Assembly: GCA_017543905.1 (NCBI GenBank)
Contig: JAFYFC010000040.1
Location: 114,824 to 178,823, forward strand
Source of the DNA: Clostridia bacterium
GTDB taxonomy: Bacteria; Bacillota; Clostridia; Christensenellales; Aristaeellaceae
Direction of reading: 5' to 3'
DNA: 64,000 nt
Below the pieces are notes generated by a model, which was not told where the DNA came from, made no database searches, and saw only the letters and a program-made list of their open reading frames with translations. Of the stretch, positions 517 through 43,239 are shown piece after piece; positions within the stretch are counted from its first letter, which is position 1, and every line of letters begins with the position of its first letter. Made by a program: the position numbers and the translations under genes.

Positions 517-589
517 TTAAGGCATTTTTATACATTTCGCCCCCATGCCTGCGCGCGGCGTTAAATGCATGTGACGAGCGTCAAAGCAG

Positions 590-618
590 TTGACAACAAA
601 TCCGTAAAGTGGTAAGAT
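590..618 (+). promoter_or_regulatory. Sigma-A type promoter TTGACA-17-TAAGAT with TGn extended -10
   Basis: -35 TTGACA at 590-595, 17-nt spacer, TGG then TAAGAT at 613-618, placed just upstream of the T-box leader. Confidence 0.55.
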
Positions 619-624
619 GCTTAT

Positions 625-866
625 AATTAAATACAGATGCGATGAGGGAGAGAGTCCGGACAGAAGCGTGTTCAGAGAGACGCCGGTGGGTGCAAGGCGT
701 TCGCGCGGAGAAGGACCGTAGCTCCTTAGCAGAGGGAAGAAAGCCCTGAGGCAAGTAGAACCCTCCGTCAGCCCGCGCAGGGGCAAAACAAGCGCATTCC
801 TTCGGGAGTGAATTTGAGTGGTACCGCGGTATATCCGTCTCAAAGCCTTGCTTTGGGGCGTTTTTA
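625..866 (+). promoter_or_regulatory. T-box riboswitch leader (tRNA-sensing transcription attenuator)
   Basis: Stem I GA/K-turn motif TGCGATGAG (638-646). AGAGAG bulge (674-679) and distal loop GGTGGGTGCAA (685-695) closed by ACGCC/GGCGT. Specifier-loop 3' side GAAGGACCGTAG (710-721). Conserved T-box AATTTGAGTGGTACCGCGG (811-829). The antiterminator TTTGAG/CTCAAA with a TGGT bulge competes with the terminator. Confidence 0.8.
836..866 (+). terminator. Intrinsic terminator of the T-box leader
   Basis: CGTCTCAAAG (836-845) pairs with CTTTGGGGCG (851-860) over 10 bp including two G-U pairs, loop CCTTG, then TTTTTATTT. The 5' arm overlaps the 3' strand of the antiterminator. Confidence 0.7.
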
Positions 867-884
867 TTTGCTGGAGGCGTAAAT

Positions 885-3203
885 ATGGCAATAACGACAG
901 GTCTTGAATACAAGCTTAAGGAGATGTCGGGGCGCATAAAAGAGCTGCGCGAGATAGAGAACATATCCATAGAGGATATGGCGCTGAAAACCGGCGTGAG
1001 CCTTGAGGAGTACATAAGCTGCGAGGAAGGCAAAAGCGATCTGAACTTCGCGTTCATATATCGCTGCGCGCTGGTGCTGGGCGTGGACGTGACCGATATC
1101 ATCGAGGGCGCGAGCCCGCGTCTGTCGTCGTACACCGTGACGCGCCGCGGCGCCGGACAGCGCATAGAGCAGGCGCACGGCATGGTTTATTATAACCTCG
1201 CCTCGCAGTTCAAAAACCGTATCGCCGAGCCGCTGTACGTAAACGCCGCCTACAGCGAGGAAGCGCAGTACAGGGATATCGAGCTGACCTCCCACGCCGG
1301 GCAGGAATGCGATATTATCATAAAGGGCAAGCTCAAGGTGCAGGTCGGCACGCACTGGGAGATACTCGAAGAGGGCGACAGCATCTATTACGACTCCTCT
1401 TCCCCGCACGGCATGATCGCCGTGGGCGGAGAGGACTGCCTGTTCTACGCGATCGTGCTCAATCCCAGCGGCGAGCCCGTGCCGGAGCTGACCGAGAACT
1501 ATTCCATGACGCTGCCCAAGCAGGCTGAAATCCAGGCCGTGAAGCCGACTGTGCCCGCGCGCGAGCATATCTGGCAGCGCTATATAGACGTCGAGGAAAA
1601 TCCGGACGGCTCCTGCAGGAGCATATCTTTCAAAAATACCGAGCATTTCAATTTCGCCTTCGACGTGGTGGACGAGATGGCGCGCCTGTATCCGGACAAG
1701 CTCGCGATGCTGCACATTTCACGCGACAAAACCGAACGCCGCTTTACCTTCGCCGACATGTCGCGCCTGTCCAACCGGGCGGCCAATTATTTCAAATCCC
1801 TCGGCATACGCAAGGGCGACCGCGTGCTGATGATGCTCAGGCGGCACTATCAGTTCTGGATAGCGATGCTCGCGCTTAATAAAATCGGCGCGGTAGGCAT
1901 ACTCGCCACCAACCAGCTGCTCAAAAAGGACCTCGTTTACCGCTTCGAAAAAGCGGGAGTTACGGCGGTGCTGTGCACCTCTACCGGCGACTGCGCCAAT
2001 CAGGTGGAGCAGGCGGCAGCGGAATGCCCGAACGTACGCACGCTGATACTCGTAGACGGCGAGCGCGAGGGCTGGCATAATTTCGACGAGGAATACCGGA
2101 TGTTCCGTTCCACGTACACTCCTGCCAAGGGCGATACCCGTCCCGAAGGCGAGGACCTGCTGCTTATGGTGTTCACCTCCGGCACGACCGGCTATCCCAA
2201 GATCGCGACTCACACGCACACTTATCCTCTCGGGCACTTCTATACCGCGCATTACTGGCACTGCGTCGATCCCGAGGGGCTGCATCTTACGATTTCGGAC
2301 ACCGGCTGGGCGAAGAGCATGTGGGGCAAGCTGTACGGTCAGTGGCTGAGCGAGGGCGCGATATTCGTATACGATTTCGACCGTTTCGACGCGAACGACA
2401 TACTGCCGATGTTCAAAAAATACAACGTCACCACCTTCTGCGCTCCGCCCACGATGTACCGCTTCATGATAAAGGAGGACCTGGCCAGGTTCGATCTATC
2501 CAGCATAAAGCACGCGACCATAGCGGGCGAGGCGCTGAACCCCGAGGTGTTCAACCAGTTCAAAAAGGCGACCGGGCTTTCGGTTATGGAGGGCTTTGGT
2601 CAGAGCGAAACCACGGTAATGATCGCAAACTCCGTCGGCATGACGCCGAAGGTCGGCTCCATGGGCAAGCCCGTGCCGCAGTATGACGTGGATATAGTCG
2701 ACGCGGACGGCAAAAGCGTGGGCGTAGGCGAAACAGGCGAGATAGTGATACGCGTTTCAGGCGGACTGCCCTGCGGATTGTGCCGCGGCTATTACGACAA
2801 CGAGCTCGGCAAGCCGCTGCTCGACGTCCACGACGGGCTGTATCACACCGGCGATACCGCCTGGCGCGACGAGGACGGCTATTTCTGGTATGTAGGCCGC
2901 GTGGACGACGTCATCAAGTCCTCCGGCTACAGGATCGGCCCGTTCGAAATAGAAAACGTTATTATGGAGCTGCCCTACGTGCTCGAATGCGGCGTCTCAG
3001 CCGCGCCGGACGAAATACGCGGGCAGGTCGTCAAGGCAAGCATAGTGCTCACCAAGGGCACGCAGGCAAGCGAAGAGCTCAAAAAGGAAATACAGAATTA
3101 CGTAAAGCACCGCACCGCGCCCTACAAATACCCGCGCATAGTCGTATTCAGGGACGAGCTTCCCAAGACCACGAGCGGAAAAATCATACGAAAACAGCTG
3201 TAA
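885..3203 (+). CDS. Fusion protein: XRE-family HTH + cupin domain + AMP-dependent (acyl-CoA) synthetase
   Basis: 772 aa, RBS GGAGG 7 nt upstream. N-terminal HTH_3-like segment (IEDMALKTGVSLEEYISCEEGK), cupin (HAGQECDIIIKGKLKVQVG...SPHGM), AMP-binding motif FTSGTTGYPK, then YHTGD...GRVDDVIKSSGYRIGPFEIE and a terminal LPKTTSGKIIR. Confidence 0.85.
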   Translation: MAITTGLEYKLKEMSGRIKELREIENISIEDMALKTGVSLEEYISCEEGKSDLNFAFIYRCALVLGVDVTDIIEGASPRLSSYTVTRRGAGQRIEQAHGMVYYNLASQFKNRIAEPLYVNAAYSEEAQYRDIELTSHAGQECDIIIKGKLKVQVGTHWEILEEGDSIYYDSSSPHGMIAVGGEDCLFYAIVLNPSGEPVPELTENYSMTLPKQAEIQAVKPTVPAREHIWQRYIDVEENPDGSCRSISFKNTEHFNFAFDVVDEMARLYPDKLAMLHISRDKTERRFTFADMSRLSNRAANYFKSLGIRKGDRVLMMLRRHYQFWIAMLALNKIGAVGILATNQLLKKDLVYRFEKAGVTAVLCTSTGDCANQVEQAAAECPNVRTLILVDGEREGWHNFDEEYRMFRSTYTPAKGDTRPEGEDLLLMVFTSGTTGYPKIATHTHTYPLGHFYTAHYWHCVDPEGLHLTISDTGWAKSMWGKLYGQWLSEGAIFVYDFDRFDANDILPMFKKYNVTTFCAPPTMYRFMIKEDLARFDLSSIKHATIAGEALNPEVFNQFKKATGLSVMEGFGQSETTVMIANSVGMTPKVGSMGKPVPQYDVDIVDADGKSVGVGETGEIVIRVSGGLPCGLCRGYYDNELGKPLLDVHDGLYHTGDTAWRDEDGYFWYVGRVDDVIKSSGYRIGPFEIENVIMELPYVLECGVSAAPDEIRGQVVKASIVLTKGTQASEELKKEIQNYVKHRTAPYKYPRIVVFRDELPKTTSGKIIRKQL

Positions 3204-3221: not shown

Positions 3222-3262
3222 AAAACTCCACGGCTTGCGCTTCGCGTACCGTGGAGTTTTTT
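3222..3262 (+). terminator. Intrinsic terminator after the synthetase gene
   Basis: AAAACTCCACGG (3222-3233) pairs with CCGTGGAGTTTT (3249-3260), followed by further T residues. Confidence 0.75.
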
Positions 3263-3292
3263 ACTGCATATCCTGTAGGCGTGAATTTTATA

Positions 3293-3321
3293 TTGATTAA
3301 TCGACGGCAAAATGCTATACT
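3293..3321 (+). promoter_or_regulatory. Promoter TTGATT-17-TATACT
   Basis: Hexamers at 3293-3298 and 3316-3321, 34 nt upstream of the ATG at 3355. Confidence 0.5.
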
Positions 3322-3354: not shown

Positions 3355-4260
3355 ATGTTCGATATTTCCATAGGTACGATCGTTCCCGTGCGTTGCGCCG
3401 CAGATATGATTCCCATACTTGAGCCCAAGGGGTTCGAATGCTTCGAGCTCGACTTCTTGGGCGAAAACCCTGCGCAACTCGACTGGAGCCGCCTTTCGGA
3501 CAGCATTAACTCGAAGCTGCAGGGCGCGCGCATTTCAGCGCTCGGGTTTTACGCAAATCCTATACTTCGGGAAGAGGACAGGAATAATCTCACGGTCATG
3601 ATAAAAAACGCGCGCCGGTTCGGCTGCAATGTAATAGGAGCTTTCGCGGGCGGAGACCCCGAAAAGTCAGTGCCGGAAAATATACCGGATTTCAAGCGTG
3701 TCTGGACGCCGTTAGTGCAAATGGCGGAGGACGAAGGCGTAAAGATCGGACTTGAGGGCTGCGGGGGCGGCTGGCGTCACGGAAGCAGGAACATAGGCTT
3801 CTGTTCGGACGCGTGGGAGCTAATACTTGACGCCGTGCAATCGCCCGCACTCGGTCTGGAATGGGAGCCCTGCCACGCACTGGAAAAGCTTGCCGACCCG
3901 ATCATACAGCTGCGCAGATGGGCTGACAAAGTCGTGCATGTGCATGGCAAGGACGGAACCGTCGCCTGGGACGTGATCGCAGAGCACGGCATAGACAGCG
4001 GAGCGATCTACTGCTGGAACCGCACGCCCGGCTTCGGCGATACGAACTGGGCAGACCTGTTCACGATACTGCTGCAGAGCGGCTTCAGGGGCGCGTGCGA
4101 TATCGAAGGGTATCACGACCCTGTTCATTTGGACGATATGGAATGGTCGGCGCAATTGACAGCGCTGGATTATCTGAAACGCTGCCGCGGCGGCGTAAGC
4201 TGGTTCGACGGGCCGGAATACAAGGGCTATGCCAAGCGCATACGAAAGGCGCATATCTGA
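3355..4260 (+). CDS. Sugar phosphate isomerase/epimerase (xylose-isomerase-like TIM barrel, AP endonuclease 2 superfamily)
   Basis: 301 aa, RBS GGGAGG. Family-like blocks GLEGCGG, LEWEPCH, VVHVHGKDG. Confidence 0.6.
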   Translation: MFDISIGTIVPVRCAADMIPILEPKGFECFELDFLGENPAQLDWSRLSDSINSKLQGARISALGFYANPILREEDRNNLTVMIKNARRFGCNVIGAFAGGDPEKSVPENIPDFKRVWTPLVQMAEDEGVKIGLEGCGGGWRHGSRNIGFCSDAWELILDAVQSPALGLEWEPCHALEKLADPIIQLRRWADKVVHVHGKDGTVAWDVIAEHGIDSGAIYCWNRTPGFGDTNWADLFTILLQSGFRGACDIEGYHDPVHLDDMEWSAQLTALDYLKRCRGGVSWFDGPEYKGYAKRIRKAHI

Positions 4261-5795: not shown

Positions 5796-5885
5796 CGGAG
5801 AAGGAGGGATTCGAACCCTCGAACGGATTTTGGCCGTTACACGATTTCCAGTCGTGCGCCCTCGACCAAGCTAGGCGACTTCTCC
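5796..5885 (-). tRNA. tRNA-Ser (anticodon GGA)
   Basis: Hand-folded. Acceptor GGAGAAG/CTTCTCC plus discriminator G; anticodon stem CACGA/TCGTG with loop CTGGAAA; long variable arm AACGG/CCGTT; T-arm GAGGG-TTCGAAT-CCCTC. CCA is not encoded. Confidence 0.9.
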
Positions 5886-42970: not shown

Positions 42971-43199
42971 GAAATGATACCCCCAAATATTAATGGCCGC
43001 GCGCATCGGCTGACCTGATCTTTGACCCCACACTCGCCGGCTGGGACGTTCGCTCCTAAGCAGCTGCTCCCCACTACTTGCCCTCTCGGTTTTACCGGCC
43101 GGACTTACTTCTAAGCCGCACCATGCTCGCCTGATGTTTCATCTGGTTTACGTGGATCGTTTTGCCTGCGACTGGCTTCGACTTTCAACCACAGACCCG

Positions 43200-43239
43200 A
43201 AAAACGCGCGATTACAGCAATTATACTATAATGCGCGCG
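43200..43239 (-). terminator. Intrinsic terminator after the MBL-fold gene
   Basis: Minus strand CGCGCGCATTA...TAATCGCGCG (10 bp with one bulge) followed by TTTTT. Confidence 0.55.

What the first reader, a model, noticed from the sequence alone, without database searches (positions are those of the whole stretch)
590..884. T-box leader placed in front of a non-canonical target gene
Seen in sequence: a complete T-box architecture. It has a promoter, a Stem I K-turn (TGCGATGAG), an AGAGAG bulge with a GGTGGGTGCAA distal loop, the conserved AATTTGAGTGGTACCGCGG box, and an antiterminator (TTTGAG/CTCAAA with TGGT bulge) that excludes a 10-bp terminator plus T-run. The terminator ends 19 nt before the ATG at 885. 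Established: T-boxes sense uncharged tRNA and normally control aminoacyl-tRNA synthetases, amino-acid biosynthesis genes or transporters. Here the only gene between the leader and the next terminator (3222) is an adenylate-forming acyl-CoA-synthetase-like enzyme fused to a DNA-binding domain and a cupin. Inference: this enzyme may act on an amino acid or a derivative of one. The Specifier-loop 3' side reads GAAGGACCGUAG (710-721). GGA (Gly) directly after the GAA is my best guess, but GAC (Asp), ACC (Thr) and CGU (Arg) cannot be excluded by eye.
Basis: partly seen in the sequence, partly recalled or inferred. Interest (0 to 1): 0.65.

Follow-up and report, generated by a model that had tools for sequence, protein, structure and literature searches.

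The report
Valine T-box controlling branched-acid CoA ligase
A genuine tRNA-sensing RNA switch that reads valine (not glycine, as first guessed) sits in front of an enzyme that most likely activates the fermentation acid isobutyrate, so that this gut/rumen-type anaerobe, which appears to lack the normal valine pathway, can rebuild valine when it runs short.

Summary
The T-box leader is real. RF00230 matches window 633-845 over the full model (79.7 bits, E 1e-17), below Rfam's gathering score of 93, with promoter, antiterminator and 11-bp terminator in place.

In 68 orthologous leaders that position reads GUA or GUC plus a purine while the preceding base varies. The UGGU bulge fits the A73 of this genome's tRNA-Val; its tRNA-Gly and tRNA-Thr carry U73.

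The gene (885-3203) fuses an XRE-HTH and a cupin to an acyl-CoA synthetase. Its nearest characterised relatives, MacsMa (PDB 3ETC) and MbcS, activate 2-methylbutyrate or isobutyrate.

- A 65%-identical paralog elsewhere in the genome sits behind an Ile (AUC) T-box.
- On a 58-protein tree, codon type tracks protein clade exactly.
- One residue beside the substrate tryptophan separates the clades: Ala476 in the Val clade, Gly in the Ile clade.
- In 66 of 80 orthologous loci the ligase is followed by VorBAC, sometimes with IlvE.
- ilvB, ilvC, ilvD and leuB were not detected in this genome.

Most likely function: Val-starvation-induced isobutyrate activation for reductive carboxylation to valine. 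The scan reached the same reading earlier on at least 86 other genomes. No paper I could search reports it.

The parts
590..618 (+). Sigma-70-type promoter: -35 TTGACA (590-595), 17-nt spacer, TG-extended -10 TAAGAT (613-618)
   Evidence: Consensus scan, 10 of 12 matches.
639..730 (+). T-box Stem I. Base pairs 639-640/729-730; K-turn 641-646 with 726-728; helix GGAG 647-650/CUCC 722-725; extra helix GUCC 654-657/GGAC 713-716; AG bulge 674-680; distal helix 679-684/696-701; distal loop 685-695
   Evidence: Rfam alignment and single-sequence fold. RNAalifold on 69 leaders shows compensatory changes in the basal and distal helices. Constrained folds give the same compact loop in 67 of 69 leaders.
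718..721 (+). Specifier codon GUA (Val, 718-720) plus the conserved purine G721
   Evidence: Of 69 Val-type leaders at this column: NGUAG 59 (U 55, C 3, G 1), UGUAA 6, UGUCG 2, UGUCA 2. The own-genome paralog reads UAUCA. Calibration on 13 other T-boxes of this genome.
731..810 (+). Stem II, the IIA/B region and Stem III (Stem III 795-800/805-810, loop UUCG)
   Evidence: Rfam alignment to model positions about 104-185; single-sequence fold.
811..845 (+). T-box sequence and antiterminator: helices 813-818/839-844 and 826-829/835-838; 7-nt bulge UGGUACC 819-825, whose UGGU pairs with tRNA 3'-ACCA
   Evidence: Rfam alignment. The core AGUGGUACCGCG is present in 68 of 73 orthologous upstream regions. 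All three tRNA-Val genes carry A73.
836..869 (+). Intrinsic terminator: 11-bp stem 836-846/850-860, loop CUU, then UUUUUAUUU. It shares 836-844 with the antiterminator
   Evidence: Terminator scan; minimum-free-energy fold; conserved with sequence variation in orthologs.
873..877 (+). Ribosome-binding site GGAGG, 7 nt before the ATG
   Evidence: Read directly from the sequence.
885..3203 (+). CDS of 772 aa. XRE HTH (aa 17-76, nt 933-1112), cupin (aa 133-190, nt 1281-1454), AMP-binding (aa 264-637, nt 1674-2795), AMP-binding_C (aa 688-766, nt 2946-3182). Pocket landmarks: A476 (nt 2310-2312), W480 (nt 2322-2324), G572 (nt 2598-2600)
   Evidence: Pfam; NCBIfam best hit MbcS; PDB 3ETC at E 6e-182; clade-discriminating residues.
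3239..3266 (+). Terminator-like hairpin plus T run that ends the monocistronic unit
   Evidence: Terminator scan. The next ORF, 3355-4260, has its own promoter-like site at 3293-3321.

Best explanation
Window 633-869 is a class-I transcriptional T-box riboswitch specific for tRNA-Val.

RNA mechanism (inferred from the family's established mechanism):
- Transcription starts at the 590-618 promoter.
- Stem I presents the Specifier GUA (718-720) to the anticodon UAC of tRNA-Val.
- If the tRNA is uncharged, its 3'-ACCA pairs with the UGGU bulge (819-822) and stabilises the antiterminator (813-844). RNA polymerase then reads through into the gene at 885.
- If the tRNA is charged, the terminator (836-860 plus U run) forms and transcription stops.

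Gene product (function inferred):
- A MacsMa/MbcS-type short branched-chain acyl-CoA synthetase of the 'Val clade', which most likely converts isobutyrate + ATP + CoA to isobutyryl-CoA.
- 2-oxoisovalerate:ferredoxin oxidoreductase (VorBAC, on contig C17) would reductively carboxylate isobutyryl-CoA to 2-oxoisovalerate.
- IlvE would transaminate that to valine.
- In this organism, where ilvB, ilvC, ilvD and leuB were not detected, this route would be the only endogenous source of valine.

Shown by computation: the RNA's identity, its codon and its conservation; the protein's family; the tracking of codon type by protein clade; the operon linkage to VOR and IlvE in relatives.

Inferred: tRNA-dependent antitermination, the substrate, and the direction of flux. 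The role of the fused XRE-HTH/cupin module is unresolved.
For: RNA:
- RF00230 full-length match, E 1e-17.
- Promoter and terminator found by scan, with the terminator and antiterminator mutually exclusive.
- 68 of 73 orthologous loci keep the T-box core.
- Every Val-type leader reads GUA or GUC plus a purine at the Specifier column, while the 5' neighbour varies.
- Helices show compensatory changes.
- All three tRNA-Val genes carry A73, including anticodon UAC on the same contig. tRNA-Gly and tRNA-Thr carry U73.
- In known-target leaders of this genome the codon sits at the stem-proximal end of the loop even when the loop is enlarged: pheS GAAGGGUUCG and valS GAAGGUCG.

Enzyme:
- Best NCBIfam hit is MbcS. 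Best structure is 3ETC MacsMa, E 6e-182.
- MacsMa prefers 2-methylbutyrate (PMC10455477). MbcS selectively activates 2-methylbutyrate and isobutyrate (PMC10026030).
- W480 corresponds to MacsMa Trp259, and G572 occupies the position of Acs Trp416.

Specificity logic:
- The paralog on C17 (65% identity) has an AUC T-box.
- 20 loci from the paralog search (own copy included) read AUC. Tandem second genes read GUA.
- On the tree, 34 of 34 Val-labelled proteins fall in one clade (SH-aLRT 100). The label needs 2 changes, the minimum possible, against a shuffled mean of 21.
- Ala476 is found in 37 of 37 Val-clade proteins and Gly in 16 of 16 Ile-clade proteins.

Pathway:
- 66 of 80 orthologous loci have a P-loop gene and then VorB, VorA and VorC directly after the ligase, with IlvE in 7.
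- The own genome has VorBAC and IlvE but no detectable ilvC, ilvD, ilvB or leuB.
- 24 of 31 genomes with the fused gene lack ilvC, against 61 of the other 120.
- Valine synthesis from isobutyrate is established physiology in rumen anaerobes (Allison & Peel 1971, as cited in PMC7356843).
Against: - There is no experimental or transcript evidence for this locus.
- The Rfam score is below the curated gathering score. The Specifier loop lacks the usual S-turn next to the codon, so codon presentation may differ from studied T-boxes.
- The NCBIfam MbcS score (424) is far below the equivalog cut-off (850), so substrate identity is not transferable by homology alone.
- In this genome the ligase is monocistronic. 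VOR and IlvE lie only behind a Leu T-box on another contig, so co-regulation with the ligase is not evident here.
- The genome is 94.8% complete. The apparent absence of ilvBCD and leuB could reflect one missing contig, because these genes often cluster.
- 7 of 31 genomes with the fused gene do have ilvC, so the route is not restricted to auxotrophs.
- That residue 476 lines the acyl pocket is inferred from its spacing to W480. It was not measured.
Confidence: 0.75

Rival explanations
1. The ligase makes branched acyl-CoA primers for branched-chain fatty-acid (membrane lipid) synthesis, as MbcS does in Staphylococcus aureus, rather than feeding valine synthesis.
For: MbcS is the best-scoring NCBIfam model, and its role is primer supply for branched-chain fatty acids (PMC10026030). 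In this genome the ligase is monocistronic, with no VOR next to it.
Against: - Induction by uncharged tRNA-Val makes sense for making valine, not lipids.
- In 66 of 80 orthologous loci the gene is co-directional and almost contiguous with VorBAC, and sometimes with the transaminase IlvE.
- Separate Val-, Ile- and Leu-coded paralogs mirror the amino acids, not lipid classes.
- The two uses are not mutually exclusive.
Confidence: 0.08
2. The T-box is real, but the enzyme's substrate is another short acid (acetate, propionate or butyrate) or an unrelated carboxylate. The Val codon would then reflect a looser regulatory link.
For: Scores against every equivalog model are below cut-off. MacsMa adenylates C3-C8 acids broadly (PMC10455477). 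No assay exists for this family.
Against: - Gly at the Acs Trp416 position argues against an acetate-specific enzyme.
- Codon type tracks protein clade exactly, with a clade-specific Ala/Gly beside the substrate tryptophan.
- Operon linkage to VorB, which scores over the curated cut-off (521 against 399), and to IlvE.
Confidence: 0.1
3. The Specifier is a different codon in the enlarged loop: GGA (Gly) directly after GAA, CGU (Arg) one base upstream, or two overlapping codons as in dual-specificity T-boxes.
For: - The 12-nt stretch GAAGGACCGUAG offers several frames.
- In two leaders of this genome (thrS ACC-G-C; the L002 leader UAC-A-G) one extra base separates the purine from the stem. That spacing would allow CGU-A-G here.
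Against: - The base before GUA is U in 65, C in 3 and G in 1 of the 69 Val-type leaders. The NGU frame would therefore read Cys, Arg or Gly inconsistently, whereas GUN is always Val.
- GGA and the GAA are not conserved in orthologs.
- tRNA-Gly and tRNA-Thr carry U73 and tRNA-Arg(ACG) carries G73, against the invariant UGGU bulge.
Confidence: 0.02
4. The leader is a decayed, non-functional T-box remnant, and the gene is constitutively terminated or read through.
For: The Rfam score is below the gathering score, and the Specifier loop lacks the S-turn.
Against: - Every conserved element is intact.
- The score is similar to this genome's ileS (81.2) and above its aspS (72.8) and thrS (68.0) leaders.
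- The same architecture is conserved with compensatory changes across 68 species-level genomes.
Confidence: 0.03

Closest known systems
Class-I transcriptional T-box riboswitches of Firmicutes (Rfam RF00230), e.g. Bacillus subtilis tyrS and glyQS, and Val-specific valS leaders
   Same: - K-turn at the base of Stem I, a Specifier codon followed by a purine, and an AG bulge plus distal loop.
- Stem II, the IIA/B region and Stem III.
- The 14-nt T-box sequence with a UGGN bulge.
- Competing terminator and antiterminator.
   Different: - The target is an acyl-CoA synthetase fusion, not a synthetase, classical biosynthetic gene or transporter.
- The Specifier loop is compact, with no AGUA/GAA S-turn next to the codon.
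- It uses GUA (tRNA-Val UAC), whereas this genome's valS leader uses GUC.
- It scores below Rfam's gathering score.
MacsMa, the medium-chain acyl-CoA synthetase of Methanosarcina acetivorans (PDB 3ETC)
   Same: - Alignment at E 6e-182 over residues 252-770.
- Trp259 is conserved (our W480), and Gly occupies the Acs Trp416 position (our G572).
- It prefers a branched short acid, 2-methylbutyrate (PMC10455477).
   Different: - MacsMa has no HTH-cupin N-terminus.
- MacsMa has Gly where the Val clade has Ala476, so it resembles the Ile clade at that position.
- It is archaeal and has no T-box.
MbcS, the methylbutyryl-CoA synthetase of Staphylococcus aureus (NCBIfam NF047394)
   Same: It is the best-scoring curated family (424 bits). 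It selectively activates 2-methylbutyrate and isobutyrate and does not use acetate (PMC10026030).
   Different: - Our score is far below the equivalog cut-off (850).
- MbcS feeds fatty-acid primers, is not fused to HTH-cupin, and is not reported to be T-box controlled.
XRE-HTH + cupin transcription regulators (Pfam HTH_19/HTH_3 + Cupin_2; solved example 1Y9Q)
   Same: - The same two-domain order at the N-terminus, with a weak match to 1Y9Q (E 4e-5).
- In other genomes of the order the module is a separate gene, either adjacent to or divergent from the ligase gene. That placement is typical of local regulators.
   Different: Here the module is covalently fused to an enzyme. DNA binding and the ligand are untested.
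Reductive carboxylation of branched-chain acids to branched-chain amino acids in rumen anaerobes (Allison & Peel 1971; Robinson & Allison 1969; Allison et al. 1966)
   Same: The predicted chemistry is isobutyrate to Val, 2-methylbutyrate to Ile and isovalerate to Leu. The habitat matches: the orthologs come from rumen, hindgut and faecal MAGs.
   Different: The classical work is physiological. In the literature I could search, no genes, no T-box control and no ligase fusion were assigned to the route.

Membership tests
T-box leader (RF00230) | Full-length match to the covariance model at the curated gathering score | tested here: not met
   79.7 bits against a gathering score of 93. The match covers the full model 1-219 at E 1.1e-17. 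Ten of this genome's 14 T-boxes, including the ileS, valS, aspS and thrS leaders, also fall below 93.
T-box leader (RF00230) | Stem I with a K-turn at its base, an AG bulge and a distal loop (the tRNA elbow platform) | tested here: met
   GAUGAG 641-646; AGAGA 674-678; GGUGGGUGCAA 685-695. The AGAGA and GGUG columns are invariant or nearly so in 69 leaders. Flanking helices show 9-32 sequences with compensatory changes.
T-box leader (RF00230) | Specifier codon at the 3' side of the Specifier loop, followed by a purine | tested here: met
   GUA-G at 718-721. All 69 Val-type leaders read GUA or GUC plus a purine.
T-box leader (RF00230) | S-turn (AGUA / GAA) in the Specifier loop, adjacent to the codon | tested here: not met
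   Constrained folds give a compact loop in 67 of 69 leaders: 1-4 nt on the 5' side, and 0-4 nt plus codon plus purine on the 3' side, with no conserved GAA. This rests on thermodynamic prediction only.
T-box leader (RF00230) | Conserved T-box sequence whose UGGN bulge matches the discriminator base of the cognate tRNA | tested here: met
   AGUGGUACCGCG at 817-828, so N = U. All three tRNA-Val genes carry A73. The same core occurs in 68 of 73 orthologs.
T-box leader (RF00230) | Mutually exclusive antiterminator and intrinsic terminator | tested here: met
   The antiterminator (813-844) and the terminator (836-860 plus U run) share 836-844. The arrangement is conserved in orthologs.
T-box leader (RF00230) | Readthrough dependent on uncharged tRNA | not testable with these tools
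   This needs in vitro transcription or reporter assays.
MacsMa/MbcS-type short branched-chain acyl-CoA synthetase | ANL adenylate-forming fold (AMP-binding plus the C-terminal domain) | tested here: met
   PF00501 at E 6.6e-65 and PF13193 at E 6.4e-21.
MacsMa/MbcS-type short branched-chain acyl-CoA synthetase | Gly in place of the acetate-restricting Trp416 of Acs, together with the alternate pocket Trp (MacsMa Trp259) | tested here: met
   G572 and W480, from the alignment to 3ETC. Residue roles are taken from PMC10455477. Both residues are invariant in alignment A1.
MacsMa/MbcS-type short branched-chain acyl-CoA synthetase | Score at or above the NCBIfam MbcS equivalog cut-off | tested here: not met
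   424.3 bits against a cut-off of 850. It is a relative of MbcS, not an equivalog.
MacsMa/MbcS-type short branched-chain acyl-CoA synthetase | Measured preference for isobutyrate or 2-methylbutyrate | not testable with these tools
   Needs enzyme kinetics.
XRE-HTH / cupin transcription regulator | N-terminal HTH_3/HTH_19 domain followed by a Cupin_2 domain | tested here: met
   HTH_19 at aa 17-76 (35 bits against a cut-off of 30.2) and Cupin_2 at aa 133-190 (42.9 against 27.2).
XRE-HTH / cupin transcription regulator | Sequence-specific DNA binding modulated by a small ligand | not testable with these tools
   Only context evidence is available: the module occurs as a separate adjacent or divergent gene in other genomes.

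The most novel reading that the evidence does not exclude
The fused XRE-HTH/cupin module adds a second, ligand-sensing control layer on top of the T-box. The protein would then be a 'trigger enzyme' that both activates isobutyrate and senses a pathway metabolite (valine, isobutyrate or the acyl-CoA). It would do this either by binding DNA to regulate its own or the VOR operon, or by gating the ligase allosterically.

Supporting context:
- The module is inherited together with this ligase as a fused, adjacent co-directional or divergent gene across the order.
- It is strongly conserved.
- It carries two of the only four residues that separate the Val clade from the Ile clade (N54/P and L117/Y).
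Probability: 0.3. Interest if true: 0.7.

Novelty: new member of a known kind. Interest (0 to 1): 0.55.

Why it matters
Rumen and gut anaerobes have been known since the 1960s to need branched-chain volatile fatty acids and to carboxylate them into valine, isoleucine and leucine. In the literature I could search, neither the activating enzymes nor their regulation are assigned to genes.

This locus and its relatives supply:
- candidate genes (Val-, Ile- and Leu-coded ligase paralogs, plus VorBAC and IlvE);
- a control logic in which each ligase is gated by the charging state of the matching tRNA;
- a concrete, testable specificity determinant (Ala476 versus Gly).

It also shows that a T-box Specifier can be used to predict the substrate of an unannotated enzyme, and that Rfam's gathering score misses this class of T-box.

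Practical relevance: branched-chain acid supplementation in ruminant nutrition, and metabolic models of uncultured Oscillospiraceae that would otherwise be called branched-chain amino-acid auxotrophs.

Tried and rejected
- **Default Rfam scan.** The gathering-score scan of the window does not list the T-box. It needed the E-value mode.
- **Minimum-free-energy folding.** Folding Stem I alone is not distinguishable from shuffles (z = -0.2). Single-sequence energy is therefore no evidence here, and comparative data were needed.
- **ARAGORN 3' ends.** They were inconsistent. I re-derived discriminator bases from acceptor-stem pairing. A few non-Val values may still be off by one, and I did not rely on them.
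- **MAFFT and RNAalifold on the middle of Stem I.** They could not register the length-variable middle helix. I used per-sequence constrained folds instead.
- **Papers not held.** Shah 2009 (PMC2767475), Meng 2010 (PMC2976453) and Vitreschak 2008 (PMC2271356). I could therefore not confirm that MacsMa residue 255 lines the pocket, nor rule out that Vitreschak 2008 lists this target.
- **Literature searches.** Searches combining T-box with acyl-CoA synthetase, branched-chain, ferredoxin oxidoreductase or isobutyrate found nothing relevant.
- **Neighbouring TIM-barrel gene (3355-4260).** I compared it with the TIM barrel fused to the Leu-operon ligase. The similarity is only 23% identity at E 1e-4, so I draw no link.
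- **Inverted repeats near the promoter.** The scan found a palindrome at 559-576. Its conservation was not tested, and I make no operator claim.
- **Rejected readings.** The Gly, Asp, Thr and Arg Specifier readings, and a decayed-remnant reading (see the rival explanations).
Full report
**1. Observation**

- A promoter-like site, TTGACA-17-TAAGAT with an upstream TG, lies at 590-618. A terminator-like hairpin (836-860) with a T run follows.
- Rfam's T-box model RF00230 is not reported at its gathering score.
- In E-value mode it matches 633-845 over the whole model (positions 1-219) at 79.7 bits. E is 1.1e-17 for the region and 1.3e-17 against the whole 2.75-Mb genome.
- The genome holds 14 T-box matches. 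Ten fall below the gathering score of 93, among them the leaders of ileS, valS, aspS and thrS. The sub-threshold score is therefore a property of T-boxes in this organism, not a sign that this one is spurious.

The antiterminator consists of helices 813-818/839-844 and 826-829/835-838 with the bulge UGGUACC at 819-825. The 11-bp terminator is 836-846/850-860, followed by UUUUUAUUU. The two share 836-844 and cannot form together. GGAGG at 873-877 precedes the ATG at 885.

**2. Which amino acid?**

I calibrated on the other T-boxes of this genome whose downstream genes are known.
- pheS: GAAGGGUUC-G
- valS: GAAGGUC-G
- leuS: CUC-G
- ileS: AUC-A
- asnB: AAC-C
- aspS: GAC-A
- two Trp leaders, trpB-like and one with an unidentified target: UGG-A and UGG-G

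In the enlarged pheS and valS loops the codon sits at the stem-proximal end of the loop, not directly after GAA. Here that position reads GUA-G (718-721).

Next I fetched 80 orthologous loci from named genomes. They come from rumen, hindgut and faecal MAGs of Oscillospiraceae, Acutalibacteraceae and relatives.
- 68 of the 73 loci with enough upstream DNA carry the exact core AGUGGUACCGCG.
- Of the 69 Val-type leaders (the window's own included), the Specifier column reads NGUAG in 59 (N = U 55, C 3, G 1), UGUAA in 6, UGUCG in 2 and UGUCA in 2.
- These are synonymous Val codons plus a purine. The preceding base varies, so the overlapping NGU frame would read Cys, Arg or Gly inconsistently.

The bulge is UGGU, which calls for a discriminator A73. 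This genome's three tRNA-Val genes all carry A73, including anticodon UAC on the same contig. tRNA-Gly and tRNA-Thr carry U73, and tRNA-Arg(ACG) carries G73. The Specifier is therefore Val.

**3. RNA anatomy**

RNAalifold on 69 Stem I sequences supports three helices with many compensatory changes:
- the basal helix, with 9-10 sequences changed on both sides;
- the helix above the K-turn, with 11, 2 and 14;
- the distal helix, with 18, 32, 11 and 17.

The middle helix varies in length and could not be aligned. Per-sequence constrained folds give a compact Specifier loop in 67 of 69 leaders. The 5' side is A, AG or AGU. The 3' side is 0-4 mostly U residues, then GUN, then a purine.

In the window this loop is AGA / C-GUA-G, closed by GUCC 654-657/GGAC 713-716. 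The same pairing appears in the unconstrained fold. The usual AGUA/GAA S-turn next to the codon is absent. That is consistent with the low Rfam score in this part of the alignment. This point rests on thermodynamic prediction only.

**4. The gene**

ORF 885-3203 encodes 772 aa: an XRE HTH, a cupin, an AMP-binding domain and its C-terminal domain.
- At least 8000 database proteins share the architecture. They are named only 'AMP-binding protein'.
- The best curated family is MbcS, at 424 bits against an equivalog cut-off of 850.
- The best solved structure is 3ETC (MacsMa), at E 6e-182 over residues 252-770.
- MacsMa prefers 2-methylbutyrate (PMC10455477). MbcS selectively activates 2-methylbutyrate and isobutyrate and does not use acetate (PMC10026030).

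GYK459-461 serves as a landmark for the 23-residue offset of the PDB chain. With it, MacsMa's substrate-critical Trp259 corresponds to W480. The Gly that replaces the acetate-restricting Trp416 of Acs corresponds to G572. Both are invariant in the family alignment.

**5. Codon type tracks enzyme type**

The genome has a 65%-identical paralog on contig C17. Its T-box reads AUC-A, with the same compact loop.

A search of 150 genomes of the order found relatives in 94 (63 of 96 genera), often as tandem pairs. A covariance model of Stem I read AUC in 20 loci from the paralog search (this genome's own copy included), CUC in one, and GUA in front of the tandem second genes.

On a maximum-likelihood tree of 58 proteins:
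- all 34 Val-labelled proteins form one clade (SH-aLRT 100), which includes the window's protein;
- all 16 Ile-labelled proteins and the one Leu-labelled protein lie outside it;
- the labels need 2 changes, the minimum for three states, against a shuffled mean of 21.2 (0 of 200 shuffles as low).

Related sequences share labels, so the shuffle only shows clustering. The clean split of two old paralog lineages, each spanning the same bacterial families, is the meaningful point.

Only four alignment positions separate the clades strictly. One is residue 476: Ala in 37 of 37 Val-clade proteins and Gly in 16 of 16 Ile-clade proteins. The Leu-type protein and MacsMa also have Gly. The residue lies four positions before W480.

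My inference is that it sits on the same helical face as W480 and narrows the pocket for the smaller C4 acid. I could not confirm that it lines the pocket, because the MacsMa structure papers are not held.

**6. Pathway context**

I used this genome's own VorB, VorA, VorC, IlvE and a 222-aa P-loop protein as tblastn queries against the fetched loci.
- 66 of the 80 orthologous loci have the P-loop gene starting 10-30 nt after the ligase stop.
- It is followed by VorB (62 loci), VorA (50) and VorC (42). The remainder are cut off by the locus end.
- IlvE is inserted in 7 loci.

In most relatives, therefore, one Val T-box heads a complete isobutyrate-to-valine module. The window and its nearest kin (L015, L018, L056) lack this arrangement. 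Here the ligase is monocistronic and ends at the hairpin at 3239-3257.

In this genome VorB (521 bits against a cut-off of 399), the beta and gamma subunits and IlvE (474 against 307) lie on C17. They sit behind a Leu (CUC) T-box, together with a leuA-like gene and a different ligase fused to a TIM barrel.

ilvC, ilvD and ilvB were not found, and leuB gave only a 20.8-bit hit. All four families were found in 14 of 14 control genomes. The genome is 94.8% complete. Because these genes often cluster, one missing contig could hide them.

Across the order, 24 of 31 genomes with the uninterrupted fused gene lack ilvC, against 61 of the other 120. Related genomes are not independent, so this is only suggestive.

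Valine synthesis from isobutyrate, isoleucine from 2-methylbutyrate and leucine from isovalerate are established in rumen anaerobes (Allison & Peel 1971; Robinson & Allison 1969; Allison et al. 1966, as cited in PMC7356843).

**7. The HTH-cupin module**

It matches a solved XRE-cupin regulator only weakly (1Y9Q, E 4e-5). I sampled 20 'ligase-only' homologs.
- Six have their own T-box, all reading AUC.
- Ten have a separate HTH-cupin ORF directly upstream on the same strand, at 37-53% identity to our N-terminus.
- Three of the T-box-bearing ones have a divergent HTH gene.
- In 4 of the 10 split forms a T-box precedes the HTH-cupin gene. The three that the Stem I model could align all read AUC.

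The module is thus a persistent partner of this ligase, whether fused, adjacent or divergent. That pattern is what one expects of a local regulator, but I have no evidence on DNA binding or on a ligand. My context data keep the question open.

**8. Comparison and novelty**

The RNA works like, and by most tested features is, a class-I transcriptional T-box. It fails two membership features: the curated score and the S-turn.

The enzyme is a relative of MacsMa and MbcS, not an equivalog of either.

In the literature I could search I found no report of a T-box controlling an acyl-CoA synthetase or VOR. Vitreschak 2008 could not be read.

The scan itself has reached the same reading on at least 86 other genomes. 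I formed the hypothesis before that look-up (note) and tested its parts independently here.

- the Ala476/Gly discriminator;
- the three-T-box layout of this genome (Val, Ile and Leu, each with a ligase) together with undetectable ilvBCD and leuB;
- the split and divergent forms of the HTH-cupin gene;
- the finding that the ligase leader monitors tRNA-Val(UAC) while the valS leader uses GUC.

**9. Verdict**

- Confidence that this is a Val T-box is above 0.95.
- Confidence in the whole mechanism, including isobutyrate activation for valine synthesis, is about 0.75.

Noticed in passing
G000 contig C17:147699-150210 (-), loci L014/L099: A paralog of the window's gene (758 aa, 65% identity) sits behind its own T-box with Specifier AUC-A (Ile), a UGGU bulge and the same compact loop. 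It falls in the Ile clade of the protein tree. It is a candidate 2-methylbutyrate-CoA ligase.
   Followed up: yes
G000 contig C17:122187-130671 (-), locus L004: A Leu (CUC) T-box heads an operon of seven genes: a leuA-like gene (far below the LeuA cut-offs), an 836-aa TIM-barrel::acyl-CoA-ligase fusion, IlvE, a 222-aa P-loop protein, VorB, VorA and VorC. It holds the genome's only VOR set of this type. How VOR is supplied under Val-only starvation is unclear.
   Followed up: partly
G000 contig C23:9002-13277 (+), locus L002; also C40:24543-24742 (-), locus L006: A T-box with loop GAAUACAG (UAC, Tyr; UGGU bulge) precedes a 544-aa acyl-CoA ligase followed by IorA and IorB (indolepyruvate:ferredoxin oxidoreductase, both over their cut-offs). 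A second Tyr T-box precedes an aminotransferase. This may be an arylacetate route to aromatic amino acids under T-box control.
   Followed up: partly
G000 whole genome: ilvB, ilvC and ilvD gave no match, and leuB gave only a 20.8-bit hit, in a genome that is 94.8% complete. All four families were found in 14 of 14 control genomes. The canonical branched-chain amino-acid pathway appears to be missing.
   Followed up: partly
loci L149-L178 (genomes G001-G145 of the same order): The HTH-cupin module and the ligase also occur as two separate genes, either adjacent and co-directional or divergent. About 24 hits in the order search span both parts with exactly one in-frame stop. T-boxes reading AUC precede some split pairs.
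   Followed up: partly
locus L143 (G092:C6): One fused homolog inside the Ile clade carries a CUC (Leu) Specifier. This may be a third specificity, for isovalerate.
   Followed up: no
loci L135, L137, L139 (three genomes of one family, f25): A Val-clade gene follows the Ile-type gene after only about 25-30 nt with no T-box of its own. Both ligases would then be read from a single Ile T-box. In L139 no T-box was detected at all.
   Followed up: no
window 43001-43205 (-): A raiA motif RNA (RF03072) at 190.3 bits, well above its gathering score of 101.3.
   Followed up: no
window 5796-5885 (-): A tRNA gene with a long variable arm. ARAGORN calls it tRNA-Ser(GGA).
   Followed up: no
window 3355-4260 (+): The next gene encodes a xylose-isomerase-like TIM-barrel protein with its own promoter-like site. 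It is only distantly similar (23% identity, E 1e-4) to the TIM barrel fused to the Leu-operon ligase on C17.
   Followed up: partly
window 559-576 and 622-627: A palindrome, CGTTAAATGCATGTGACG, lies just upstream of the -35 box. A perfect TATAAT lies at 622-627 with no matching -35 box. Conservation was not examined.
   Followed up: no
locus L005 (G000 C14:31192-31389) compared with window 718-720: This genome's valS T-box uses GUC, whereas the ligase T-box uses GUA, as do about 94% of its orthologs. The two leaders would monitor different tRNA-Val isoacceptors.
   Followed up: no
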